DNA from: Tubulanus polymorphus | Lineage: Eukaryota; Animalia; Nemertea | NCBI RefSeq assembly: GCF_964204645.1 | Contig: NC_134029.1 | Coordinates: forward strand, 9,574,850-9,638,849 | Direction: 5' to 3' | DNA length: 64,000 nt | In this document: in pieces, positions 16,201-51,500 of the stretch | How the letters are laid out: each line of letters starts with the position of its first letter | How positions within the stretch are numbered: the first letter of the stretch is position 1 | Notes under the pieces: model-generated | Database searches by the model: none | Seen by the model: the letters and a program-made list of their open reading frames with translations, nothing else | What the model was told of the DNA's origin: nothing | Position numbers and translations under genes: made by a program

Positions 16201-19200
16201 ACTAATCCGTAAATACTATGCTTCTTTTCCTTTGAGTAGTATCTGCTATTAGCCCATAAAATTATTTCTTGGGAAAGGATTGTGCTTGGTGGCTATCATC
16301 ACTTTACTATGAACTCACAACATATATGTACAAAGAAACACCAGCTCCGAATATTTCATAAAAATGCAGCAAGAGCTCAAAAAAGCTGTATATCATATTG
16401 AAGAATATACAAAAAGATGTATTAAAGTAGTTACAGTGCAATCTTAGTTGATATGCAGCATGGATATAATCGCTATGTTACATTGGTGGCTGTTATAAGA
16501 CATTATTCATATAATTTCAATATGGCCAAAGACTATCCACGAAAATGCAAAGCTTTGGATATACAGGGTGTCTTAGAAAATGTGTTAGATAAGACCTTTT
16601 TTGGGACGGTTGAATCTTGGAGCAAATATATTCTAACATCAAAATGTTTACTCCAAGCATCACCCGATCAAGTGTCAACCGACTAAGATTACACATATGT
16701 TAAGATAATAGATAATTTATATAGGCCTATTTCCACAAAAAGTGGTGGAATAATATTGTAATAATCTGATTCATTTATCAAGATGACAAATTTCTCTTTC
16801 TTATTCTACCATAAATAAATCTGACGGATAGGTAAATATGTAAATAATAAATGTGGCGTGTATTATGCATGTATAAATGTATAAACAGAATGTGCAAATA
16901 TTCGGAGCTGGCATTGACCCTTGAACGTTGTTTCTTGACAATATGTCTTACATCTGCGGAAATGGCTGTTTTTCCCGTCAAGTTGGCTGACCTCACCCGT
17001 GACCTCTATTTTCATCATACCTGTGCTGATTCGGCGAGGTTTCTCAGCCTGGGGCTTTATCAGAAACCGATTGTCTGGAGGACTTAAACTGAATGCAACC
17101 CCTGTTGGTGGGCTGGTTGCACCAAACTCATCATTTGAACTAGTTTGGAATGCATGAGCCCTGAAAATAGACAGTTATTCTCAGCATTTGAAGGATTCAA
17201 TTCACCACATTGAACCTAAATTTAATAATTATCCTCATTATATGGCTTCAATAGTACGTATCAATGGTTCAACCATATGTCATGTTCAAACATGACAAAA
17301 CAAATACATTATTACATTTGAAACGAAGGCATTTTTTGTTCAGGTAATTTGTGATCAACATTCAGGTAAATGCACAGGTTCCTGTTACATACCTTCATTG
17401 GGGCTACCTTGCCCCACCAGAAGCGAGCTGCTCTCATTTGGTGTTAACCAGAATTCAAATACAGTGGTAGTAATATGATTTCAATTGTTACCATGGCCAT
17501 ATGAACACAGCAGTTTACTATTAACAGACTTTGAGCAAATGGCCTCTTCAAAAGACTGTGGTTATGGCGAAATTGATTTATCATAGACCATGAATACAAA
17601 CTACATAACCATTTTGTATAGAATAGTTAGCTTTTTTGTTATGATATTGCTTATTTACTGTGAAGAGGTGCGCATTTCTATATCTTCAGTAATTTTCATA
17701 ACCTGGATTTCCTGCATTGAGACTATCTTGGTGGATCAGAATGGCAGTAAGAGCGTATGTTGACCCATTTATGAAAGCAGGAATTGAAAAATACAAAACA
17801 GCTTCTGGTGACCATGACCTTTGACCTAGAGGACCGGAAATCTAATCAGTTACCCACAGTCTCTAGGATAACTCATCCATCAAATTTCACCTAGTTACTT
17901 TAAAGGGTTCATTAGTTAGAGCCGGAAATGAAAAACACAAAACAGCATTGGGTAACCTCATCTAGTACAACATAATTGTTGAATATCAGGAGAATCTGTC
18001 AAAGGGTTTAGGTGATAGGACACAGAAACCACTGCGGACAGACAGACGGAAAGTGAACGCAATAGCCACTTAAGTTGCAAGTGGGCTAAAAATGTACACG
18101 TGGCACTATTTTAAACGCTGTCTTACTTATGCAATATTTAATCAACCAAGAAACAAAAATTTACCATATACGAACTCAACCTTCTGTATTTCATATTCAA
18201 GAAGCTGCGAAAGTTTCAGAACCGTATGTTGCATTAAATGGATGTAATCGTTTGATGTGACATGTACTACGTACAGTCATCCTGAAGACCTGATCCAAAA
18301 TGACTACTTTCTGAAGGCAACAATGCTTGTCAGTTAGCTAATATCAGTAGAGATGTATCTACTACCATTTTTTTGGAAAAGATGTATGTTGATTTGACTG
18401 CTAAAACCAGTCCATTCGATCAACTTCTATTAACTCTTCTATCAACTAATTCCCTAAAAAACTTCGAAAATGTGTAAAAAGTACTGATTTTGGTTAACAA
18501 CGTTCACCATTTTCATCACGCCAGTTTTTGGGCTGTTGATGTGTCTTGAATGGATAGATGTTCGAACCTAATATCAACACTATCTTCAAAACTTCCCAAA
18601 CATTAGGATTCCATCTACAGATAGCAAACGGACAACAAACAAACTGCGAAAGCAATAGCCCCTATGTGGGCTAAATAGGTTAAATAGTTTTTTTTGCATT
18701 CCACAGGTAATACTGCTACCCCCAGTATCCTCAAGCTTCGTCAATGGTATGATATGTCAGTGAAGGAATTGTCATGATTGGCTATCAAAAAAATTCGCAA
18801 CACCTACTTAATCTAATAATTCATGGTTAATCAGTTGTGTGAGCCTAGTTCCCCTGGAACCTAATATTCAAAAGGGCACAACCTATGATATTTTGGTCTT
18901 GCATATACTTACGGCATTGAAATAGTACTGTATCGTTTATTATCAAGGTTTCCATGGTATTCCGGATTGATAACGACTCGCCTCAATGCCTCGAGAACCA
19001 TACGACCAGTTGTGAACACTCGGTATGTTAACAGGAATGTATTTAAGAAATCAATACTCAGAAAACGGAGATCAGTGAGTCGATCTAACAAACGATCAAC
19101 TGATGCATGACGAATCTGAAAAAGAATTGAACTCATTATCATCATATGGTCAACTACATTGTTGAATCATGAGTTCAAATGCCTTTGTTTGACAAGTCAG

Positions 19201-22200
19201 TCACACATTTTATTTTTCCCAGTTGTGAGATTATTTCCAACCATTAGCAAGTCCTTGCTGACCAACTGGTGAAATGTTCGATGTCATCCAAAAATATTGG
19301 GCCGTTTCCAGCACGCACTTCTTCCAATTTTGTCCGATTGGTGGCCTAATGATCTGGCCAATCCACTTAAGTGTAAAGTGCCATTTCGAAAATTAGTAGT
19401 GTTACATTAGATATCTCAATACCTGTGGAACTTTGCACGAATTCAGAGTTCGGCTGAATTTTATATCGATGTCATCTCTGAATAGCTTCGGATCTGACCT
19501 GCAATTGAGTCAAAGCAAAACAATAATTATAGCTAAATCTTTCATGAATTCAGGATACCTTTAATAAACAATATCATTTCCGGGAAGAAGTGTCTTTGGA
19601 AGAAATAACGAAAAATGTTGCTCTGAAAAAGATGTCAAAATTATAAAGCATAGCATTTATAGCATAGGCTTCACAAGTAACAGACTGAATGATTTCACTT
19701 AGGGAAAACTGCCATGCTTGTTACGTTTGAATGATTAGCACAAGAAATAAATTACATGTATGTACAATACAAATCACGATACAATATAAAATTCTATGTG
19801 ACGTAAGCCATATGATAAAAGTCTCATAACTTTTCAAACAGGGGAACACTAAATGATAGTGCCAGATACCATAACTGAAGCTGTTGGCAAAAACATGTTC
19901 ACGCACTTGTGCTGATCAGAGATAATGGATCTAGCCAGAAAACATCAATGCTCAACTCCTATTGGAGTTCAGGGATTTGGAAACAAATCAAATGTTTCAT
20001 AGATCATAAATCTCACCCATGAATTGTAAAAATATCACAAGTCACCAATTCATGATTTTCTTTGCCAAGTATCGCTCACCCCTTCATTGAGCTGTGGTAC
20101 TGATATCTGTGAAACATGAATAGTGATATTCATGTAGTGCTCACACAGAAGAAATACCATTTATTCTAGATTAATATCATAATAAAAAAATGTAACTCAT
20201 CAGGTTTATGGAGAATCTTGATTTAGGAAATATATACCTGGTTATTCTACAAAAAAGTGAACTATGATATCCCGGTTAGACCAATACCTGGATTGAGCTA
20301 ATCTGGACTAAGTGGGTTTTATTATATTATCATAACTACAGTCAATGACTGTTATATATTTCTATGGATAATACACTTTCTAATTAGTTACCGCCACGGA
20401 CAACAATAGTACGTGAAGCTTATGCTGGCTGCAAAGCAAAACTGACTATCACAGAATCATTATTGAATCTTCAGGGAACCCCTGGTTTCTATCATTGAGC
20501 TAGTAAATGAAGAATATCTAGCGAGACTAAATGTTGGCATTTAGACAGGTTAAGATGAAGACAATGTTTTGATTTGTAAACTAGCTTAGGCAAATAAGCA
20601 CAGGAAAAAATGATAGGTATAGGTATGTTATGTCGAGTGCCATTCCTTCTTGTTGACTAGATGAGCATTACGTAAATGTTAACCTAGGGGATCAAGAGAA
20701 AGCATGATTTTCTAGTATCGATAAAGCTTAAAAGTAAGTGTGGATTTAAATTTGTACCCAGTACTTAAGACAGACTGGACTGTCTTGAATGGCTAAGTTT
20801 CCGGCCCAGAAACTGAATCCAATAGTTATCTCCGGGACATTTGCAAGGTTTTGCCCAGCACATTAACAGAAAATAACTTAACCCTTAGGAACCTGCTCTC
20901 GCAAATTTGCGAGAGAACAGAAATGACACCGAAAGGTCTGATCTTGCAAATTTGCGAGAGGTGAGGTTTAGCCCAGTAACTGCAAAAGCACCGTGAAAGT
21001 TTTAAATTTAGTATCGACAAGTAGTATGCGTCTGGGGAAAGCCATGTCTGTACACAAACTCATAGCGTACCACTAAAAATTCTCGAGAAATCCACATTGA
21101 GTTAGCAGGGTGCCACAAGGTGGCGGTTTCTTCGATTTTACAATCAGGAAACAGACAACGTTACGCTGTTCATTTTGCTAAAAAATGCCTAGAAATTTCG
21201 AACGGATGACTAGATTGTTTAATTGATTGCCGACGAAGGCTCGGAAAATGAGGATGTTGTTACGGCTTGGTAATTAGGTACTTGTTTCCTTTGTTTTTAC
21301 CCTAAATTAATTCAGTCTTGCTCAGTTCATTGTTGTAAAAGAAATCCAGGTTCCTAAGGGTTAAGACATTACATGGAATGATAGTTTTCTCATAAAAGAA
21401 AAGAATTTAGATCATCTTGTACAAAAGCCCTAACCAACTTTTAGTGGACCTGAACGCCAAACTAAACGCCAAATGCTGGTTTCGAGGGATTTCCGGGAGA
21501 TTCTCAGGAGATTCTGTCAATGTTTTACTAACACCGAAAAAACATGCTTAATTTGCTCCACTAAAGCAATAATAGCATGTTATGTTATAATGAATAACAG
21601 CAGCTGTTAAACAGCCTTCTAACGAACAGACAAAGTACATGTACATGATATTCTATTTACACATTCTAATTTAATCATTATGCTCTGCCTCTGTTGTGGC
21701 AGAGTATTCATCAACATCTACAAGTCCCAGGGCTAATATATATATATATATATATGGTAAAATGGAATAATTGTAGGTGTAAATCAAGGCTGGAAGGAGG
21801 TGCAAAGTGAATTTGTGGAGAATTAAGAAAAAGTTACTCCCGTCCCTGTTTTAGATGGGATTTAACAAACCGAGCTCATAAGTCATACAAAATTGTGCGT
21901 CATCCTCACCTGTGTTGGATATATCCCTATTCAATTTTCAATTAATTTACAAATAATGATGTCTTAAGTGCACTGTATATCTATGATTAATCAATCAAAC
22001 TTGACTAGAAACTCTTTACCCCAGTTCCACAGTTATATTTGACACTTAAGTTAAAATGAACTTCAAAGTCAAAATCATCTTTAAATTCATTCCAAAGAAA
22101 AAAATTATCTAATAATGAACCTAAGTAATAGTTAAATCTTATTCCACTAGAGTTCCATGGCTGTAGACTGAAATTTGATTGTAGCTGAATAAGTCGCTTA

Positions 22201-25200
22201 CAGCAGCCATAGGCCGACTTGCAACCCTATTGGTTGCAACTCCGATGCGTCCGTCAAGTAAGGGTGTGCGAATAATCTCTATTAGTCAAAAAAGCAGCGT
22301 CGGTTGCCACTAGGAGAGATGTCTGTGCGACACGATTGTCGAAATAATTGTACTGGATTTGATGGACATATTTCTATATCATCACTCCACAGCGTAATGT
22401 TAACAAAACAAAACTTGGCTGAAAAATGTTTCATGAAAAAAAATTCAAATAGGCTTTGGTTTGAATGATTCAAATTCTAGTGATCATCAACAAAAAGCAG
22501 CTGGATCGAAACAACTCAGGTACAACTGTGGATCTTTATAGGGGGATGAATATTCAGCCCTTGCAAGGGAGGATGTCGCCGTATATTATATATAAATGAT
22601 GATATAAAAATGCACTGTATGCTCTTTCTAAAAGAAGACAAGGAGCTCCTGTAACTAACAAGGACAACAGTACTGCACATTGACAGACTCACCACAGTTG
22701 GTTGCTGTACACACTGAACCTGTTTGGAAAACAGTGCAATCAGATCAGACAATGTGAAAATCAAGCGACACAATAACAGCAACAATACACAAAACAGCAC
22801 TACAATTGTCTTAGTTTATAAACTCTCCACAAATGGTATGTATGATATATGTATGTTGCATGTGGTTATCTTCTGATTGAAGTTCTTGTTTATAATCTTA
22901 AGACGACCACATTAACCGATCAGAAGAGTTGAATATGTTATGAGAGTTTTTTTTTCAATCATGTGGCATTGCAGTGTGTTTGAGTACGTAGCTGTTTCAG
23001 TGGCTGAGGTGAAAGGTACTGTAAGCAGTGAAAGGGTCAACGAAACAATATTAATGCAGGAATCCACGTAAAAGTGGTTTGGCTCCTTAAGTTGATGGTT
23101 CTTATTCAGCAAGGATAATTCTAAAAATATAATTTTGTTCTGATAATCAGCATGTTCGATGAAGTGATTGTATTAAGAGTGTATTCCAACATGTACATAC
23201 GTTAATACAGCATACTATCATATACATGTTAATGTATGTTAAAATATTGTAGTATATACAAATCTACAATAAGTATTCAAACATGTACAGGTATTATACA
23301 AGCCAAAGTAAATGTAGTGTGCAAACATGTTCATAAAGTTAACTGCCATAACATGTTGTATACAAACATGTGCATGCAGTATGCAAACATGAATGTGAAG
23401 TATGCAAATATAGACATTTAGTATCCAAGCATGTACACGCAGTACCGGTATACTGCCACAACATATTCATGTAGTACATAAAAGCGTGAATACAGTATAG
23501 TGTCATAAGATATGCATGTACATGTTCATTAGTATGCTGCAATAAAACATGTTATGCATATTCTATGCTAGCCTGTACATGTAGTCTACAAAAACATTTA
23601 TGGGCAGTATATCAACATGTGTACACAAATACACTAACTTACGTATGTATGCATACATGAAATGTACATAATATACATTCCGTTCTAGAGTATTTACTGG
23701 TATATGAAACCAGGGAGGTTTCACTCCCACCTCCCTGATGTAACATACAAATGTACATGAAGTCTATAAGAAACATGTAACATATTACGCAAATACTTGC
23801 AAATGCTGATATTATTCAATTTCATTTCAGACCAACAAATATTTTGATTTCTTAAATTTTTGGTTTCATTGCACGATTAGGTCACCCTTTCAGTTGAACA
23901 GTCAGACAAAAACATGTTTTTGTGAACTAGAAATTGCATGCAATCGAGGGGACATTCCAGCGTTACTTTGATCCTGACAATGCGCAATAGTGAGAATAAA
24001 ATGCGACGTGACTCTTGTATAACCACTTTCATAAAATATCAATGATGTAGCTGAATTCTGTAAGGTGAATGAAATGATGCCAAGTTTATTATGTTGGAAT
24101 GTGGTTCTGTTCCAAATTTGCAGCCTTAATATTCCTCTTCTATTTATCATGATGGTAATACCTTCATATAGGTTCTTGAAAGTCTTTGTCTTATTATGAA
24201 GGTATTACCATCATGATAAATAGAAGAGGAATATTAAGGTTGCAAATTTGGAACAGAACCACATTCCAACCTAATAAACTTGGCATCATCTGCTTCCACA
24301 TACAGGTTCTTAAAAGTCTTTGTCTTATTATGTGGAAGCAGATGGTAGGCAGGAAAAAATCTATTATCCATTGACATTTGACAAAAGTGGTTGGCAGTTT
24401 TTAGTTATGCCAAAAAAAGCGTTTTTAATCATAATGAAAAACCATGCCTGACACACACAGGTTGCGCAATCGTGGACAAGTTCTAGACGAATACAAGATG
24501 AAGACAGGGATATCTTGGGAGACAAGATCATGAGCAATCCTGATAGAAATACGCCAAAAAATTTAATAAAGATATATCAAGGATAAACAATTGGTTAAAA
24601 ACGTTATGAGGGTAGTACTGAATGTAGGTGCGCAGGCATAGGTCATTGAATGGTTTGGGTATATTTGGTTTGGCACTTGTAGAGTTTTGAATGATTTTAG
24701 CATTAGTTACCTTCGATGATTCATTGACCTACCTCACTGACTGTGGCATCGTCACAGATGATGTATCACTCATCGATGTATTCAGTAAATCACTGTAGTG
24801 CAGATTCTCAATACACTACAAACATTCAGAAATAAGCTTTTTGACAAATCCCCAAATCAGGCTAGATCCTCAGAGAAAACTATGATTCATTATTCAGTAT
24901 TATTCGGTATTCATCAGTACAATTTTCACCTAGTAGAAATCTTTTGTCATATCTTTATTGCAAAATCCACAATTTCTCAAACACATAAACAACACAATAC
25001 ATCAACTAAGTGGATTTAACCAGTCTCAAAAAGCCAAGAAGTACTACATCTTTATATATAATCTAAATTGAAATCATAGCGATAACTTTTATTCAGACGC
25101 TAGAGATATATAAACAATGTAAAATTCGCTGGCTACAGCAGTCAGTGGTCTTCAAGACATTTAAGTGATTTAAAAGTAAACGCCCCTAAAGGTTATTGGC

Positions 25201-28200
25201 CAATGGGACCAATGACTCAGTTGAGAGAGTCAGTCCGTACCATGTTCTACTTACCTGACTGATATCGCTACACCATGCTGCCTTTTCTTGTAGCGTTGAA
25301 GCGACCAATGTGATTGTGACTGGCGGTCCACTTTTTGTATCGACTATAATCCGGAAGTCGAGGCCATTGTAGTCGATGCTTGATCGATGTTCACATGACT
25401 GCGTCGATAGGAGGTTCGCCTGTGAGCCGGCACTCATACTGGAATCTATGGAGCACGCTGGAATAAGAGTGGGGGTTCGGGAATACACGTGACACTGTAG
25501 TGACATGCTGAATGCTTTGCAGAGACCTTATGTACTCTGTAACTATTAAATTTATCAGAAATCATTCTTATTCACCAATCCTAATCTACGAACAGAGCGA
25601 CTACAAAAATCTGCACTCACACATCTATTTCAACCTCAAATTTAAACAAAAACCTAACATTTTTGTATGTATATGTATAAGCCACTAAGTTATTGCAGTG
25701 TAATTTGAATTCTGCACATATTCGTGAGAATTGAAGCTGAAAATCTTTTGAGACAGTTGGTGCGTTCAATGATTGTGCCTGCAAAAATGATTGTGCCTGA
25801 TTTTTCCGCATCATCCTATCAAAACGAATGAGCCAGTGAATTCCATGCCACATATTATGTGATCTTAAATCAATAATAATAATAATGATAATAATAATAG
25901 GTGAAATGTAATAATATGAATATGATATTGTAAATATATAATTATCAGCATGTCACTCATAACAACAATGAAAGCCACCAAAGCAATTTGACTCGATGGT
26001 TTTTATAAAAATAAACTTGCGATATAGGATAATCCAGATAACTAGGTTACATTTTACTATAAGTCTAAAGAATTGTATTGTGAAACGTTTCGATATGTAA
26101 GTATATATAAGTATATGTAATTTACGACAATGCATTCAATAGTATCAAGATCAAGAGTTATACATAGTCCGAATCAGTTTAAGCAATTTTCATGTTATAC
26201 CAAGGGCCGGGAAGGTTGTAGCATTACAATGCAAGAGAATAAACAAGGGAAAATGACCATGATCAGAAACAATATAGTAAGCATGTACACTGTATGTACA
26301 TGCATGCTTCTGTCTGCACCAGTCAGTCTGTGTCAATGAAACTCATTCTGACAATGATTGGAATCTACTTTACTGAATAATCAGTGAATTCTCACTACAT
26401 TTGCAGGTGAACTATGCTAACTAGTGATTTAAAATAATACAGAAAACCTCTGTTGAACAATACTTTAACATAGCGGAAACGAATACAAACCAGCCACTTT
26501 CGGTATCCTGTAAAACTTCGCTGGTTGGCATTTAGTAATTTCACTATATGCACTTACAGTACTAAATTAAGCAGTATTCTTCATACAGAGGTTTTAGTGT
26601 ATTTTGTGCAGCCATACTTAGAAGCCTACGCATATCTGACTGGTGAACACTTGAGCATTTGAATATTCAAGAAGTTTTTCAACATCTAATGACATAAAAG
26701 CTTCCATGCACTAGTTTTCCCATCATATTTCTCCTCAATAAAGCACTTTCTTAATATCAAATGTGCTCCACACCCAAGAATTTACGCCTTGTAGGTTAGT
26801 CAATCAGCAGGATATTTGTTTACATTCCCCTGTTGGGGAGTTGTTAAGTTTTTTCTTTACTTACTATCCTCCTCAAAAAAGAAGACGTCTGACGTTGAAT
26901 CTTCAACTAACGTACAATCAGCTAATGGAATTTTTCCATAATTCTGAAAATGATGATGCAAACTACATTCTCACACTGATTTCACACATCAAAATTCCAT
27001 AACTCAATATTTGATGCTACTATCATATTCTTACGTATTATACCTGTCAATTCTATGTAAAATGTTCAACAAAACATCATATTTGAAACATCAAATTTGA
27101 TCTTGGATATACTGTAAAAACCAAGTCACTATCACTTCCTTATGAAACGTATGAAGGTTGACAATCAATTTTGGTCAATAAAGAAGTTTCCAGTTTCTAG
27201 GCGCCATTTTGTGGCGGTCCCTCAAGGTTCCCATTGTTGCGATAATTTGCGTTCATTTTTAAAACATAAGTTTTGATTGAATGTCATATAGCTCTGCAGT
27301 CCCTTGCTTGATTAAATTCATTTATAGACCATTTTAAAGGAAATTAAATGCAGATATTTGCGCCAGCGATTCTTGGATTTTTTTTAACGCAACAATTAAG
27401 AGCAGTGACGATTGTGTAACCAAGGACCGCATATTTCAACCGTGCGTAAAAAAATTGCAATTTCTACAGATTTTGAAATATCTAAGTGGTTATTAAAGCT
27501 AGATTCCCCATCTTTTCTGAGGTTAAAGAGCGTTATTTGCAGGTTTAGCCTGGGTTGAAAATTTTTAAATATCTTTCCTGACGACTGATCTGTAACCACT
27601 AGAGTTTGAGGGGATATTTTGAGATTATAATTCCAATCTTGTTTGTACAACGTTTGGCGGGAGCATTCGTTTAAGCTTGCTTTCGCGATCCGGTTTTTCC
27701 CACTATTGAAGTTTGAACCGCGCAGTTTAGGAATTGTCATATGCAGTTCGTCCAGCTTAGCGCCGATTTTGTGTTCGGTGAAATCATGGACTCGTTTGGA
27801 GTCCATGGTGAAATGGGGGCTATCAATTCAAACGCTTATGACATGTTAAAAACATAAGTCTCTCTCGTAATCCCTCATTCTGGGATCATACGATGAATTT
27901 ACTGAACATCGACTTTCTTGCTGGAAAACATGACCAGAAAACCTTACTGATATCAAATTCCAATATCATGAATATCATATCTGTCCCCCATTTAATAATC
28001 TGTTTTAGAGGATCAACATCCATTTTTGCAACATTCAACTGAACCACATATTCAAAAACATATAAAAACCTTGATTTTGTTCTAAAGTCTCCAACCATGA
28101 GCGGTACATTCTGTTCAAACGCAAAGATAGGCTCTCAACTAGGTCATTTTCGTATCCAACACAGAAAGTACCCTTTCTTACAAGAAATCCTTTAATTTTC

Positions 28201-31200
28201 CGACGCTACAAAACTCGTATTCCTCAAAGCACTCATAGTCCATTTTCAACCATACGAAATTAAAGGTAACATATAACCTTAAGAAGCAATATTGATAACT
28301 AAAAACCAGTATAAAATTGTATATTTGCCATTTCCATTCCCAAATCTCAATGTTCAGTGAAATAGCTGTGCGCAGTGGGAGACCCCTTTGGCGCGTAATC
28401 TCAAACTCTATCGATAACAGATCAGTCATCAGGAAAGATATTTAAGAAATTTCAACGCAGGCCAAAACTGCAAATAACGCTCTTTAACCTCAGTAAAAAT
28501 GGGAAAATATAGCTTTAATAACCACTTTGATATTTCAAAATCTATAAAAATCGCAATTTTGAACCCATTAACCCTGGATTGATGAGACCAGTGACCGGCG
28601 GCTTAAACTACATGGCCACTCTGGCAACTAACAGTCATCAAGTGTTAAGTCTTCAAGGATTATTTCTTCATTAGATCATATATTTGAGAGTTATTCTAAT
28701 AGTGTGGCGATTAATTCTGTGGTCAATATCAACAGGGCACATGTGTTGTACATACCTTGGCTAAGTGTAACCTGCCATTCGATGCTCGACTAGTGAGTAA
28801 CATGTGATATGTAAAAAGGAATACTTGTCTGACGACTTCTTTCTTCGATTCTTTGAAAGAAGAACTGAATGAGCCAAGGCGACCCCTGGATGACTTTCGA
28901 CCATCATTCAAAACGTGAAGAAGTGATCCTAAAAAAGCAAGGTTCATAGGCGTGAAAGATATCACTAATTAGAGTTTTATATACTAATCACTAGTATATA
29001 AAATTATTAGTATATACTAATAATTTAAGTTTTATATGCCTTGTTTAATCATGTATATCCACCTGACATCCTCAAAAAACCTCCCTAACCCAACTCCAGC
29101 ATCAACATCTTGTCAAAAATTTTTGAAAACAAAGATGGCCACCAGTCAGCCATATGGCATTGTGACCTAGATTGATCTACTGGTACATACTGTTATCTAA
29201 CATTCTCTGAAATATCAAGGTTCAACATAAAAAATCTTTACAGTTATACACCAAAATTAAAATCTCTGGAAACAAAGACGGCTACCAGGCATTTAAAAAA
29301 ATTGGCTTTAAAAAAATGATATTTTGTATTCAGATTTTCGCAAATACCTCCTGTAAATTTAAACGAGGCCATTTTTAAAAACTCAGTTCCATAGGAATTG
29401 GAGAGTGGATAATGCTTTAATGAATGATTTGTATAAATATATGCTTAGTTGATCAGTCAAAGGGGCCATAGCTCTGGAAACCATGGCATTTAAATTTGCT
29501 CCATTTCTAAAGTAATAGGCTCAGCCTACGGTTGGCCTAAAAATGGTAACAGTGGGATTTGATCCAATTAACTTAGGATAAACTAGAAACACAAGATGTT
29601 TAATTTCCCTTAAGAAATCAACATCTTTCTATTCGAAATTCTCAAGTATTTGTAGTATGAACATAACAGATCAAAGGTTTGGATGAATTTCAGGGGGAAA
29701 AAGGTCCAATTTTGTGGTCCACTTCATCAAATCATACAAGCAAATGAATGCATCGTGGGTTTACAATAAAATCATACAAACTTGTAACATAAAGATCAAC
29801 TGGAAATGAGCAATTCTGTTTTAAAATCAATGTAGATTTTTCTTTAAACTTTCTGAGTCAAAACAGATATTACATAGTGAAATTCCTCAGTGCTAATGGG
29901 TAAGCAGGGGTTCAAATTTCTGTGAAAAAAAAAAAAAAACCGATGGCCACTGATTGTGGGGTTGACTATCATACATGAATATACGGTACATGTCTCAGCC
30001 AAAATCCTTCTGATATGTAAAAAATTAAACTCTTTGGGTCTGTATTGCATAGTACTTAAACGCTCATCATTTTTGCCAACATTCAATGACACAAGGATAG
30101 TGTCTTAATGGGGAAGGCAGGTGAGACTCCCACAATAGGAATAAGTAAGTACTATATTCAGGAATACATATTTTAGTCCCAAAAATTGTAATATTTCCAT
30201 CAGGTATTGTATCCTTTCCTATGGTCTTAGCAAGACTAGTCCAGCACAAAGATGGTGGTGGCCAGTGAACCAAATCAAAGCTTGCTTGCAAGGTAGTAGG
30301 AAAAGAAACGGTGTCCACCAGAGCAAAACCACAAGAACAATTACTCAACTAGAAATATTTAAACATGCGGTCCGTTTTCCTGCCCAGGTAGGTTTGAATG
30401 ACAAAGATTGTTTTTCATTGGACTGACTGAGACAATAACCCTGATAGATCATGTTTTGCTTGTTTACAACTGTCAGAGACTGTCAAGTAAAGATAGGCTG
30501 AAAGTCTTCGAGAGATCCGTCAATTGATCATGATGATGAGCCCCAAGGGGCACTACGCTTTTCATAAATTGAATGATCCGCAATGTTTGGGTTATATTTG
30601 TTAACCCCGATCAATTGACAATAGACAATTGACGTGTTTATAAGTAACAGTACTAACAGAGACACTGGGCTGGCACGAACGAATACCTAAGATCAATCTT
30701 AACGGATTGTCTAATGAATAAATTTGAATGTAGAATAAAATAAAATTGAATTTGATGAATTTGATTTTTTTGCTCAATCAAGTTAAATTGACTTGGATTT
30801 GATATTTTTGCGGAATAAAATTTCATTGATTTTGCAATCTGTGCACATGGCTAATCTGCATATCATGGTCATCAATCCGATTTGAGAAAAAACTTTCCGG
30901 AACAATTGTCAAGGATGAATATTTAGAAGTGCAAATAGAACTTCCTCTCAAAAACCAAATTTACTTATTGTATCACAGGCATCACTCTTGAAATACAATC
31001 TTAAATCTTATAATTAAACCTGGAAATAAAACAGTCGTCGGTACTGCGGATTCACATGAAAACCTTGATGACTTCTGCGGGTAAGCAAAGAGGAGACGAT
31101 GCTTTCTGATTGGCTTTTTTAAACTGACAGTTTTGCGTTCATATTTTCATGAAACATCTGCTGTAAATTTCAACAAGGCCCTTTTTCAAAATTCAATTTG

Positions 31201-39949: not shown

Positions 39950-42900
39950 AATACATTTATCACATGTACATTATGCACAAGAGGAGAGCAAAGAATAGGA
40001 TGCTTCATTCAGACTGGAATGTGATCCAGTGCGAATAGAAAGTAAAGAGTTCTGAGTATAATAAGGACAGAGATGCAGAGGATGGATGGTTTGATGCATG
40101 CGATTCATAATGTGGAGCTCTGCACCAGAATCCAGTGACACAACTCACAATTTCTACTACTTAATAAAATGGTATTGATAATAATTAGTGATAATCATAT
40201 TGGTTAGATAATAATACATGACCAGTGAAACCTTTGGTGGGTGCAATTACTTAACGAATTGATCTTACTTGATGCATAGGGTAGGTTAGGAGTGTCTCGA
40301 GGGAACCACTGCTGTATACCATCTTCTCTTCACTACGTTTGCCAGCGAAAGGGCCCTTCATCTATAAAATTGGCGATAAAATTCACTGATGCAGTTTCAA
40401 CAATCAGCGAGAAAATGAGATGAAAAATTCATCCATTACATTTAGAAATACACTTTGTTCATCGCGCGAGCTTGTAAAAGACGCGTAAAACACTTTTCTA
40501 GTGTTCTGGTGCAGAATTCCCCCTGATTCTGGCCCCTGAGTTAAATCAATTCGCTTTGAATTTGATAATGAATATATCAATGCACCAGTGCACTGCATTT
40601 TCCAACATGCTAAACCAATGAAACAGTGGTATGCCTCAGATTAAACTACAAATACTGCATTTCCAATATTATATGGGTCTGTGAATAAGAGAAAATTGAT
40701 ATCATTTTTGATTACATTAACCTTTTCAGTGCTGACTAATTATTACCTGAAATTACTATTAATTTAAAAAATTCTAAAAATTCCACCCAAATGTGTATAA
40801 GAACAGGCACACTGCTATAGTGGGTCTATATCATAGCCTGGTGTATTGTAAATGACTAATATTTCACTATGATGGACAGGTGCTGCCATCTCTCAATAAA
40901 GATGAAAACCAATAACTATGTACATCAATGCACCGTGATGTGGTGTACTAGCAAAGTTCATCACTGATTTAAACACTGCCCTGCGATGTAGATGCACTGA
41001 AAGGGCTTAACGTACAGAGTGATAGCAGGAATTGTAATGGGTTCATTGTGTGCGTCGAGTCATTGTTTCTGAGAAATGAAATTATCATTCAAGATCAATT
41101 TCAACAATCGAACGAGGCCAACACGGATAAAACATATTTGAGTAATGCTTAGAAGATGAAATAAATACCTGCTGCGCATACTAAAATTTATTATCCAAGA
41201 GACATGGGAAACGATCTCATGATAGTGTGACAGTGTGCAGGTAGAGGGAATCTATTGTTAAGAGTTTATCGTGCACTTATAAGATGCTTTCCAAGAGTGA
41301 TCTACCACTGCGCTTAAAGCCCCACTAAGTTCGCTCCTACGGCGGGACAGATCCAGGACTAACTGGATTTCGAGCGACTGTTTGGCAGGAATCAGAATCA
41401 AACGGCAGCATAGGTTCGAATCCCATCTCTTGTATTCTTTCGACAGTAGAATTTTTCAATTATCATCACGAATCAATGGCTTTATTGTGTATGCTGCTTT
41501 CATGAGGCAAATTGAAAAGTTAGATAAGTTACACGGAAGGAATTTTCGTGAATAATACAGATACAATTTATGTTGGAAGATGGTGTAGGGCCTACTGTGT
41601 AGCAGTTACTTATCCATTGATTCATATGTAACTTTCATAAGTCCTTGATCTAATGAAGCTGAAATGATACAATGAAAGCTAGTGACCTACTCAACCTCAT
41701 GGTTGTAAGTAATAATTCAGTACGTCTCAATCATAAATATCAATTCCTAAGACCGTGCAAAATTATTCAGGACTAATACCACTGTTTCATATTATGTCAT
41801 ATTCAATAGCTAGTGCTACATGTCAAGTTCTTAGATTGATAACGGATATTACTATATGCATTTCAAAGCAGCATTCTAAATAGCAGTTATTCATTATTTC
41901 CCTTATTCTTATTCATGCACTACCGATACATAGAATGTAGAAGAACAAGAACCGTTGCCTTCATAAGGTTTGAAAGTTTTTTCCTTGATGACAAAGAATG
42001 GTGTAGTTCTTGAAAACTTCTTGAAGACAAAAGATGCATATGCTTCAAGGCCAAAAGTCGCTCATGCACCATAACACTGAAAAATCTTACCATCTCAATG
42101 GGGCTAAACATGACAGTACTATAAACATCGGGGCATGTATAATGAACCAAATTATATGAATTCAAGAATCAGATGTTTCTATGGATGAAATGTAACATAA
42201 ATGGCGATGAGTGTATGCATGGAAACTAAATAACTTCTACAAGAATAGTGCAAGAATTATGCCAAAAACTCATCCTAGTTCAATTATTCAAATCTCTTCA
42301 AGACTCTGTCATCAAGCAAAACCCTGCAATGGTAGAAAGGGCGTGCAACTATTCATAGTATTGAGGTACATGTGACCCAATCAGATTGCCTGTTGCATAC
42401 AAGCTTTTCTCTCTTCATCACTCAACCAAATGAGCACCATGAGCAGCACTCATTGTTTCTTTCACCCAATTGAGGGGAAGGAGTGAATGAAGAACCTCTG
42501 TCACCACCAAACCCAGCCTTGGGATGCGAGGTGAAAGACTGATGGTTTTAATGACTAAAACACTTTCTAACACTTAGTGTATTTTGTATGGTGTCAAAGT
42601 CTTGATGCCATCTTGTTCTTATCCCTGCAAGGGAGGATGACAAACTTAAACAAATTATGAAAAAAGATTATGTTTTATATAAAAGGGAATAATAACCTAC
42701 ATAACTAAGTATTACCTAAAACTGAAATTTTCAGGTTAAAGTAACCGAACCAAGATTGAGGCTGTAATCGTAATTTGGTTCAAAAAACAAATTCCAAAAT
42801 GTTTCTATGTATTGTATAGTGGTAAAAATTTGAAAAATGTGAAATTGCATTAGTTGTTAACCCTTTTGTCAATCCACATAGAATCTGGGAGACAGAATAG

Positions 42901-48500: not shown

Positions 48501-51500
48501 GGATCCAGAGTTACATATGCCTTTAAGAGTATATAAGTGTTTAATGTCATACGTGAAAATATTTCAGGCACAAAAAGGGATTTCGCTGATTTAGCTGATC
48601 CGAGCAACATAACCTTGTCTTTTCTGTTGAAGCTATGTAAAAGTTTGTGAAATTTGTCTGTAAAATGGCACTTCAGAGGACTGAACATGCTCACCCCTCC
48701 AACCTGTTCTAGATCCACTAAGCAAAGGAGGAAGAGATATCTTTTAAGGACAAAACGCAGCAAATGAATAATCCCCATCTGCTAGCCATATGACAAATAC
48801 TCAAAATATTATGAAGTCTTTCATTTCAATAACATTCCTGAATTCAATGATTAGCAAATCTTCCACTGTCTACCACAAGTAAATATTCTTTAAAATTCTT
48901 TGTAGGCCTATGCATTAATGCTTAAAAATATCTTTATGCAGCTTAGCAGTGGTAACTTTTTTTGCATATCACCTGAAGGAGCAAGCAAATGCTGTAAACT
49001 ACACTTCTTGCAGAATGCATGAGACTCTTGTTTAAAGCTAATTTTTCTTTTTTATATTTAGTATTCACCTCATCTTTCAGTTTCTTCACTTCACAGGAGA
49101 GCTCTTCGGTCTGTTGCACATAGTGCCACTTAGCTTGCCGTTCGCTGTCCAGTATTTGCAGCAAGTGCAGATGCTTCTGTTCCAGTTCTTCCTTTTGTTC
49201 GAGCACTTTGCTATAGCTGCAATTTTCAAATGATACATTATATGATTCAGCAATCAAGGTACAAAACTCAAAGTACGTAGACCCCGATTAAGTTTTAAAC
49301 AATTTCAATCCTATCAACGTCCTCAATAAATATGTAGACCTCCTCATTAAATATTTTCAGTTTTCAGAAAGTAACACATTAGCATTGGAGGTTACCCAAT
49401 TTCTTCGTCAAATATGAATATTTTTTGATTGGTTTGAACAAATATAATATAGCCAAAAGATTTAGATACATGGTATTCAGTAATTAGTAATATAGGCCTA
49501 TGCCAAACAGAAACCGGGTTGATATGAACCAGCAGATGTGAGTGCTATTACTCTCACTATCAAATTAACCCCTGGAAGGGTTTCAATTGTTTCTTAATAC
49601 CATTTTCCTAGGGTTTCAATTTATTGCCCAAAACTCACAATTTCATTTGAAAAATCCCATCGTAGCCCGGTGCTACCATGGTTGTTTTGAATGCCTCGAA
49701 GACCTTAGCAGCATCTATCGGGTATCAGGCAAATGAAATAACAGGTGTCCGAAACACTTGGGTCTTGGGTGATGGGTGTTGACATGAACGTATGTCCTAA
49801 ACCCCCAGAGAATGGACATATTGGAAGTAAAGATATATCCAAAATATTCATTTTAAAGGAACAAACAGTCAACTAAAATCTTACATTGTTTATACTCTCA
49901 GTCAATTTACATAAATTGAGACCCAGCTCCAAACAAACTCAGCAACAAACCGCTCAGCAATTCATTTCATATTCCTTTAATCAGTCCTTGATTTATGAAT
50001 ATGTAAACCCTGGCTGGGCACACGGGCAACTTTTTCTAGTAATTGTTGAGCGCCAGCCGAATGGGCTTTATGTCATATGTCTACGGGCAACTTTTTCTAG
50101 TAATTGTTGAGCACCGGCCGAATGGGCTTTATGTCATATGTCTGCAGTGACAGGAGACAGAAATTGCTTCTTGTAGAAAGAATTTGCACGGAGTTGCCCA
50201 ATATCAAACATGATCAGAAAATAGCTTGCCACTGATATATCTCTCATCGATCGCTTCGAGTTGCTGTATATGCGCCTGCTGGAGAAGCCAAGCAATAAGC
50301 AACCCATCAACTCGCTAATGAATGAGCAAATAATTACCATGTGATACTGCCAAATGTGGGAACTTCCAAGACAGTTATCCATAAATAGATTGCCCATGGG
50401 AAAAGTGGTTTACCTTGAAAACTGGAGCTTGTTTGCCCAAGACATTGTCTCTGAGGAATATTTTTCATATATCCCAATCGCAATGGCTTGTAGAGACAAC
50501 ACCCCAAAATTCGACTGAAAAGCAGTCTCTTGTGTTCGAAGGTCGTCATTTTGACAAGTCACATGACATAGATGTTTCCACGGAAATGCTCCTGTGATAG
50601 CACATGGGAAACCACAAGCAACCAATTGCATTTGCTTATTGCAACAACGAGCAACTAAAATTGCCCGTGTCACTAGGCTTAAGAGCATTATGCCATTTAA
50701 TTGATGCTGGGTCATTGTCGATCTTAGATCAGCGAGCGATCTTTCACAAACAGTTTTGGACCACATCAAAGACCCGTTCCACCGGGCCTGCAATGCCGGC
50801 AACAAACGCTACCAGTGAATGCTCTTCCAGTTCCTTAAGAAGGGTCTATGAACTAGTTGAGGATGATGATATGACTCGTCTTCATTAAGCCGTTACACAT
50901 TCTTAACCTTCAATTGAGTGAAGGCTTAAATGCATAGGCCCAGAATGCCTCATGCCTCAGAGCTTCTAATTTTAGAATTAACTTAATCATTCAATACCTG
51001 TGACATGGTCAAATCTATGGCGAGGCCCACTGCTGTTATTGGTATATGAAAATATGAATTTTAAATTTTCATTCAATCCATGGATTTGGTACCGTACAAG
51101 TAGTTTGAAACTCAAATATACCATAAGCATGATTCATACTGCCTAACATTAATTTCTCTGGCCAATCATCCTGTCCGATCACAGTGTGCACGTAAAAAGA
51201 TTTGGGATTTGGAAAAACCTTGGAGTAATCATCTTGCCCAGATGTGTCAAGATTATTCACTCCAAGGAAAACTCAACCCTCTGTGCGGGAAAGGAGGTTA
51301 TTGTGGTACGAAAAAGAAAATATTAAGCAAATCCAACCCACCTTAAAATGATCTGAATGATTTCGTTTCATAGACCAACCAAAACTACTAGCATTGTAAA
51401 CCCAATCCATAGATTGAAAAAAAAATTGGGGCACCCGGGGTGCTCCATACGTTTTCGTTTTTATATCCCCAAATTCCCATGAGTTTGCATTCATCAATCA

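What the first reader, a model, noticed from the sequence alone, without database searches (positions are those of the whole stretch)
20080..22719. Two 27-nt microexons whose mutual junction spells TGA: possible stop-codon-enforced mutual exclusion
Seen: the phase-2 intron between exons 24733-24815 and 19423-19498 holds two segments of identical 27-nt length, each with a CAG acceptor, pyrimidine tract and GTGAG donor. A alone gives [17 protein letters not shown] alone gives [17 protein letters not shown] ends in TG and B begins with A, so A+B makes an in-frame TGA upstream of REM/CDC25. Both place a Ser codon (AGC) at the same position, hinting at an ancient duplication. Known: premature stops upstream of many junctions trigger NMD. 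Inference: a three-state switch (skip, A or B) at the PH2-REM hinge, where double inclusion is removed by a junction-built stop rather than by frameshift. If it escapes NMD, it would yield a Rac-GEF-only (DH-PH) product. From memory, vertebrate RASGRF1 also has a short optional insert at this hinge; this needs checking.
Basis: partly seen in the sequence, partly recalled or inferred. Interest (0 to 1): 0.82.

Follow-up and report, generated by a model that had tools for sequence, protein, structure and literature searches.

The report
RasGRF microexon pair spells a stop
Inside a signalling gene (RasGRF) of what is likely a ribbon worm sit two 27-base optional-exon candidates that each keep the reading frame but together spell a stop codon; the first matches a tiny exon shared by molluscs, a lamp shell and an annelid, the second is likely real but unproven, and the stop would discard messages carrying both, likely as a by-product rather than a purpose-built switch.

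Summary
A is the orthologue of a 24-nt cassette exon (YIHSTQIW type) annotated in molluscs, Lingula and Owenia (1 of 11,498 random 27-mers scored as well) and has neural-microexon-like features. B has no orthologue found and only weak similarity (p about 0.04), but such a 27-nt site pair arose in 0 of 600 simulated introns, so it is probably an exon. The only RNA contig at this intron shows the skip form; A, B and A+B were not observed. The stop needs little explanation: all 50 relatives' 8-residue inserts end in Trp (TG), so B merely has to start with A (roughly 25-40%). Lineus models join their two exons here in frame (Cys), so the stop is not conserved. Verdict: a real conserved microexon, a probable second one, and a plausible but unproven, likely incidental, stop filter. 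These are 'at most one' cassettes, not classical mutually exclusive exons.

The parts
24733..24815 (-). Upstream constitutive exon U (end of PH2 helix and linker), ends in phase 2 (AG|gt)
   Evidence: tblastn 96% to Lineus; covered by spliced contig of run X3, joined to 25255 upstream
22693..22719 (-). Microexon A, 27 nt; orthologue of the 24-nt YIHSTQIW-type cassette exon and the Lineus 27-nt exon; ends in TG
22722..22799 (-). 78-nt AG-free zone upstream of A with CUGAU branch-point-like motifs (22748, 22743) and UGC (22738-22736)
   Evidence: second longest AG-free zone of 15 acceptors examined
20080..20106 (-). Candidate microexon B, 27 nt, starts with A; no orthologue found
   Evidence: weak peptide similarity to the conserved exon, 454 of 11,498 null
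19423..19498 (-). Downstream constitutive exon D (start of REM region), begins with G
   Evidence: tblastn 89-96% to Lineus and Lingula; first 10 nt seen joined to U in one X3 contig
18913..19115 (-). REM (RasGEF_N) exon, downstream of the junction stop
   Evidence: Pfam PF00618 E=4.6e-13; spliced to the next exon in an X3 contig

Best explanation
A and B each keep the frame alone and spell TGA together; A is the orthologue of a conserved cassette microexon, B is likely a second, lineage-restricted cassette microexon, and the stop would send any A+B message to nonsense-mediated decay, likely as a by-product of A's conserved terminal Trp codon. The gene would thus have three productive forms (skip, A, B) that change a short, low-confidence linker between PH2 and REM. 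A is likely included in neurons by the Srrm234/eMIC pathway (long AG-free zone, UGC near the acceptor); B lacks those marks and is likely controlled separately, so co-inclusion may be rare anyway. Shown: sequence, frames, stop, skip junction, conservation of A. Inferred: splicing of A and B in this species, tissue, NMD, effect on Ras versus Rac exchange.
For: A: mean BLOSUM score 19.6 against 7 relatives' inserts, reached by 1 of 11,498 random 27-mers. The 8-residue insert is in 50 of 331 relatives' proteins with both anchors (530 held), from at least 17 named species of Mollusca, Brachiopoda and Annelida, with skip and inclusion models in the same species (e.g. Ostrea P0138 vs P0142). Lineus X2 vs X1 differ by a 9-residue (27-nt) insert ending Q-L-TG like A. 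B: acceptor stronger than 14 of 16 near-edge acceptors of the gene's own exons, 0 of 600 null introns give a 27-nt equal; its splice sites and length are intact although its body is at chance identity to A, which fits selection rather than decay. By-product: 50 of 50 inserts end in W after R; 5 of 15 exons of this gene start with A, 5 of 12 among A/G. No steric block (2,586 nt between A and B), all sites GT-AG, no significant RNA duplex over the four sites, so the stop is the only exclusion device found. Insert lies in a pLDDT<50 linker after the PH2 helix in a Patella model.
Against: No RNA contig covers A, B or A+B; the only contig at this intron (depth 5, one run) shows skipping. No B orthologue in 530 proteins or in the metagenome introns examined. 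One of 3 window candidates at B's thresholds (48717, 23 nt, with an in-frame stop) may be a chance pair, so strong sites alone do not prove an exon. UGC is weak evidence: 5 of the 13 other acceptors also have one within 40 nt, and about a quarter of SRRM3/4 targets lack it (10.1101/2024.09.17.613571, passages), so B could share A's regulation. The splice-site score was an approximate recalled matrix. A by-product origin cannot be told from selection without relatives that have B.
Confidence: 0.55

Rival explanations
1. The junction stop is a selected control element: co-inclusion of A and B acts as an AND gate that lowers RasGRF by NMD, or the built-in stop is what allowed a duplicated exon to be kept as an alternative.
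For: Same length and phase; weak similarity of B to the conserved exon's front half (454 of 11,498 null; 230 of 4,603 against Lineus alone). A tandem copy of an exon that starts with A and ends in TG would carry the stop from birth (inference). A partial tandem exon copy exists elsewhere in this gene (40361-40269). Alternative sites that would rescue A+B in frame are weak (A donor at 22696 scores -4.6).
Against: The stop is expected with about 25-40% probability given the conserved Trp. Lineus models join the 27-nt exon to a 78-nt exon in frame through a Cys codon. A-B nucleotide identity is at chance.
Confidence: 0.2
2. Only A is an exon; B is a chance or decayed splice-site pair that is never or only rarely spliced, so the stop has no biological meaning.
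For: No RNA or orthologue for B. No UGC and a short (31-nt) AG-free zone. 17 of 600 null introns hold some pair as strong.
Against: Only 4 of 600 such pairs are 3n and open, 0 of 600 are 27 nt; B keeps Arg at the upstream split codon as all 50 relatives' inserts do; relatives repeatedly carry lineage-specific exons at this intron (Lineus 78 nt, Octopus 54 nt, hemichordates 36 nt).
Confidence: 0.17
3. A+B escapes decay and yields a stable PH1-CC-IQ-DH-PH2 protein with Rac but no Ras exchange activity.
For: The stop falls cleanly after PH2; the DH-PH unit of RasGRF has Rac GEF activity (PMC3762125, passages). Amniote RASGRF2 has database models that end after the DH domain with a conserved alternative tail (11 of 15 listed members, 552-564 aa), a precedent of sorts.
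Against: At least 7 junctions lie downstream, the second about 100 nt past the stop, which by the recalled 50-55-nt rule predicts NMD; no truncated-at-hinge protein among the 330 relatives checked.
Confidence: 0.08

Closest known systems
NMD-policed mutually exclusive exons (Hatje et al. 2017, PMC5740500; Kuroyanagi et al. 2014, PMC4165533; passages read)
   Same: Double inclusion gives a premature stop that would be removed by NMD.
   Different: In those surveys the stop comes from a frameshift (non-3n exons) or an exon's internal stop; here both exons are 3n and the stop exists only across their junction. Double skipping is in frame and observed, which PMC4165533 classes as tandem cassette exons.
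Srrm234/eMIC (SRRM3/4)-dependent neural microexons (PMC8797185; 10.1101/2024.09.17.613571; passages read)
   Same: A is 27 nt, 3n, in a linker, with a long AG-free zone and a UGC between branch point and AG.
   Different: Neural inclusion and eMIC dependence untested; B lacks these marks; no strict CUAAY branch point at A.
Bilaterian hotspot of recurrent alternative splicing in Fgfr IgIII (Burguera et al. 2017, PMC5703972; passages read)
   Same: One conserved intron position repeatedly gains lineage-specific alternative exons (here 24, 27, 36, 54 and 78 nt inferred from protein inserts).
   Different: Different gene; microexons in a linker rather than domain-sized exons; no functional data for RasGRF.
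Lineus longissimus RasGRF models XP_064620077.1 / XP_064620078.1
   Same: Closest named protein (93%); a 27-nt optional exon ending in TG followed by a second exon in the same intron.
   Different: Second exon is 78 nt, unlike B, and joins in frame (Cys); both are computed models whose read support I could not see.

Membership tests
RasGRF | PH1-coiled coil-IQ-DH-PH2-REM order, groups with named RasGRF proteins | tested here: met
   Pfam IQ, RhoGEF, PH, RasGEF_N in order; exon map; tree, sister to Lineus 99/98. CDC25 domain lies beyond the window start.
Mutually exclusive exons | Exactly one exon included (no productive double skipping) | tested here: not met
   Skip is in frame, seen in one X3 contig and in 264 of 331 relatives' proteins
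Mutually exclusive exons | Junction reads from each exon that bridge the other | tested here: inconclusive
   No contig on A, B or D in run X3; contigs show presence only
Mutually exclusive exons | Homologous exons of equal length and phase (tandem duplication) | tested here: inconclusive
   Equal length and phase; 8 of 27 nt identical (p 0.37), peptide p 0.09, B versus relatives p 0.04
Mutually exclusive exons | Steric block (under 50 nt from donor to branch point) or U2/U12 incompatibility | tested here: not met
   2,586 nt apart; all sites GT-AG with ordinary GTRAG-type donors
Mutually exclusive exons | Competing RNA structures over the splice sites | tested here: inconclusive
   Best duplexes at the four sites matched by 15-69 of 250 random windows; A donor by 16 of 150 shuffles; no homologous introns to test covariation
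NMD-policed exon pair | Double inclusion gives a premature stop well upstream of later junctions | tested here: met
   TGA at the A|B junction; at least 7 downstream junctions
NMD-policed exon pair | Double-inclusion RNA exists and rises when NMD is blocked | not testable with these tools
   No such data
eMIC-dependent neural microexon (exon A) | At most 27 nt, frame-preserving, conserved | tested here: met
eMIC-dependent neural microexon (exon A) | Long AG exclusion zone and UGC near the 3' splice site | tested here: met
   78 nt, UGC at -19; 6 of 248 AG spacings in the intron are as long. B: 31 nt, no UGC (not met)
eMIC-dependent neural microexon (exon A) | Neuron-specific inclusion that depends on Srrm234/eMIC | not testable with these tools
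   No tissue-resolved reads

The most novel reading that the evidence does not exclude
A pair of frame-preserving microexons is kept 'at most one' by a stop codon that exists only across their own junction and is maintained by selection: an NMD filter, or AND-gate off switch, for 3n exons, a class for which the surveys I read list no NMD route. It sits in a RasGRF intron that is an unreported bilaterian hotspot for optional linker exons.
Probability: 0.2. Interest if true: 0.68.

Novelty: new variant of a known kind. Interest (0 to 1): 0.42.

Why it matters
If B is spliced, this is a clean natural test of whether a junction-only stop can police 3n exons, something MXE surveys screen for only through frameshifts. 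Independently of B, the work shows a microexon in RasGRF conserved across four spiralian phyla, at a PH2-REM linker where octopus, nemertean and hemichordate models carry other inserts, pointing to a recurrent splicing site that may tune Ras versus Rac output of a neuronal, calcium-regulated exchange factor. If B is not spliced, what remains is an ordinary conserved microexon already present in public gene models.

Tried and rejected
No whole genome held. Run search listed 3 runs from one study, none on record as RNA; X1 is continuous genomic, X2 patchy genomic, X3 spliced. No X3 contig on A, B or D: lack of cover, not evidence of absence. Degenerate pattern for the conserved microexon in metagenome contigs: 0 matches. 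80 metagenome loci: 6 spiralian-like loci (547-1,442 nt) and 4 arthropod-like loci hold the whole intron at the same position; none shows a convincing A- or B-like exon (18 loci scanned by peptide score). A 17-nt inverted repeat over A's donor (21507-21523) is not significant: rejected as a docking mechanism. Lineus 78-nt, Octopus 54-nt and hemichordate 36-nt inserts have no significant match in the intron (best local score 35, upstream of A). Shared AGC codon: chance level. Alternative splice sites inside A and B all score below zero. Vertebrate RASGRF1 insert not retrieved; a single trout model has a 13-residue insert (P0252), of unknown standing. Patella model is low-confidence around the linker and REM, so it only places the insert outside PH2. 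Literature: no paper on a RasGRF microexon (2 hits, one read, RASGRF1 only as a fusion partner; listings only) and none on a junction-built stop in 3n exon pairs (listings, plus passages of PMC5740500, PMC4165533, PMC5703972); the library lacks most subscription papers and supplements were not read. Earlier scan findings: nothing relevant.
Full report
Observation. The minus strand carries exon U (24815-24733), segments A (22719-22693) and B (20106-20080) and exon D (19498-19423) exactly as described. Skip, A-only and B-only are open; A ends in TG, B begins with A, and A+B reads TGA. With an approximate splice-site score (recalled frequencies) A and B are the only two candidates of 3-60 nt in the 5,234-nt intron and stand well above the other five open 3n candidates up to 300 nt. 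B's acceptor outscores 14 of 16 near-edge acceptors of the gene's own exons, some of which may be mis-picked. In 600 simulated introns 17 held a pair as strong as B, 4 an open 3n one and none a 27-nt one; the window's plus strand held none and the minus strand three, the third being a 23-nt piece with an in-frame stop.

The gene. Pfam finds IQ, RhoGEF, PH and RasGEF_N in order; tblastn maps about 20 exons. On 540 columns the protein is 93% identical and sister (99/98) to RasGRF of the nemertean Lineus longissimus, within spiralians (24 named relatives chosen by me), so the window is likely from a ribbon worm. The intron lies between the last PH2 helix and the REM region; in an AlphaFold model of the Patella protein the homologous insert (residues 643-650) falls in a linker with pLDDT under 50, and the downstream exons align with the SOS REM start (weak E-values 0.003-0.02).

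A is a conserved cassette microexon. Of 530 proteins held, 331 have both flanking anchors; 264 have no insert and 50 have an 8-residue insert of the YIHSTQIW type, in at least 17 named mollusc, brachiopod and annelid species, with both forms modelled in the same species. Lineus X2 differs from X1 by a 9-residue insert ending in Q-L plus a TG-type codon. A's peptide aligns to these with a mean score reached by 1 of 11,498 random 27-mers, and to the Lineus exon alone by 26 of 4,603. A has a 78-nt AG-free zone, CUGAU motifs and a UGC at -19, the features listed for eMIC-dependent neural exons (PMC8797185, passages), although UGC is common at other acceptors here (5 of 13) and not strictly required (10.1101/2024.09.17.613571, passages).

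B is probable, not proven. It has no orthologue among the proteins or the metagenome introns examined, lacks A's upstream features and resembles the conserved exon only weakly (454 of 11,498). A and B share 8 of 27 nt, which is chance. In favour: the null result above, the preserved Arg at the split codon, and the fact that relatives gain other exons at this intron (Lineus 26 residues, Octopus 18, three hemichordates 12). Intact splice sites and length beside a body at chance identity fit selection on B better than decay of a dead copy (inference).

RNA. Three runs hold the region, none labelled RNA. X3 gives spliced contigs. One contig, depth 5, joins 25255 to U and continues with 10 letters of D followed by two mismatches at its end, so the skip form exists. 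Nothing covers A, B or their junction, which is no evidence either way.

Is the stop a device? No steric block (2,586 nt), no splice-site class mismatch, no frameshift and no significant RNA duplex were found, so the junction stop is the only exclusion device visible, and escape through alternative sites looks weak. With at least 7 junctions downstream NMD is expected by the recalled vertebrate rule, untested in nemerteans. But all 50 relatives' 8-residue inserts end in Trp after Arg: TG is fixed by the protein, and the stop then needs only an A as B's first base, about 25-40%. The one relative with two exons modelled here, Lineus, joins them in frame through Cys. I therefore read the stop as a likely by-product that would still discard A+B messages (0.55), ahead of a selected switch (0.2), B not being an exon (0.17) and a stable Rac-only protein (0.08).

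Comparison with what is known. MXE surveys list steric block, U2/U12 mismatch, frameshift-NMD and RNA structure (PMC5740500, passages); in C. elegans 3n clusters showed no NMD dependence and pairs with in-frame double skipping were reclassified as tandem cassettes (PMC4165533, passages). This pair works like an NMD-policed pair but fails MXE membership because skipping is productive. Searches found no paper on a RasGRF microexon or on a junction-only stop in 3n pairs, within an open-access library. The intron resembles the recurrent splicing hotspot described for Fgfr (PMC5703972, passages). The recalled vertebrate RASGRF1 insert was not retrieved and stays untested.

Verdict. Observation confirmed; interpretation partly supported; a new variant of a known kind; interest 0.42, rising to about 0.68 if B is spliced and the stop proves conserved and NMD-dependent.

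Noticed in passing
window 40269-40361 (-): Partial tandem copy of the 3' end of the DH exon 43474-43281 with its donor (86% over 43 nt; about 70% over 78 nt); an upstream AG would give an open 93-nt phase-0 exon. Pseudo-exon or extra cassette.
   Followed up: partly
window 48695-48717 (-): 23-nt segment with the strongest short acceptor/donor pair in the window (12.7 bits) and an in-frame TAG; poison exon or chance.
   Followed up: partly
window 24058-24305: 111-nt inverted repeat, 93% complementary, 26-nt loop, upstream of A; looks like a small non-autonomous transposon.
   Followed up: no
window 20872-21370: Element with 24-nt terminal inverted repeats between A and B, with raised depth in run X1, so repeated in the genome.
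   Followed up: no
P0535-P0545: Amniote RASGRF2 database models of 552-564 aa that leave the canonical protein just after the DH domain and end in a roughly 100-residue tail conserved from a lizard to mammals; possibly a real alternative last exon.
   Followed up: partly
window 26944-28755 (-): Relatives carry a second set of optional inserts inside PH2 at this intron (32 of 94 proteins, 6-17 residues); no candidate was found in the window's intron.
   Followed up: partly
window 22693-22696 (-): A ends in a tandem GTG|GTG donor; the weak upstream GT (score -4.6) would give a 24-nt exon that joins B in frame.
   Followed up: yes
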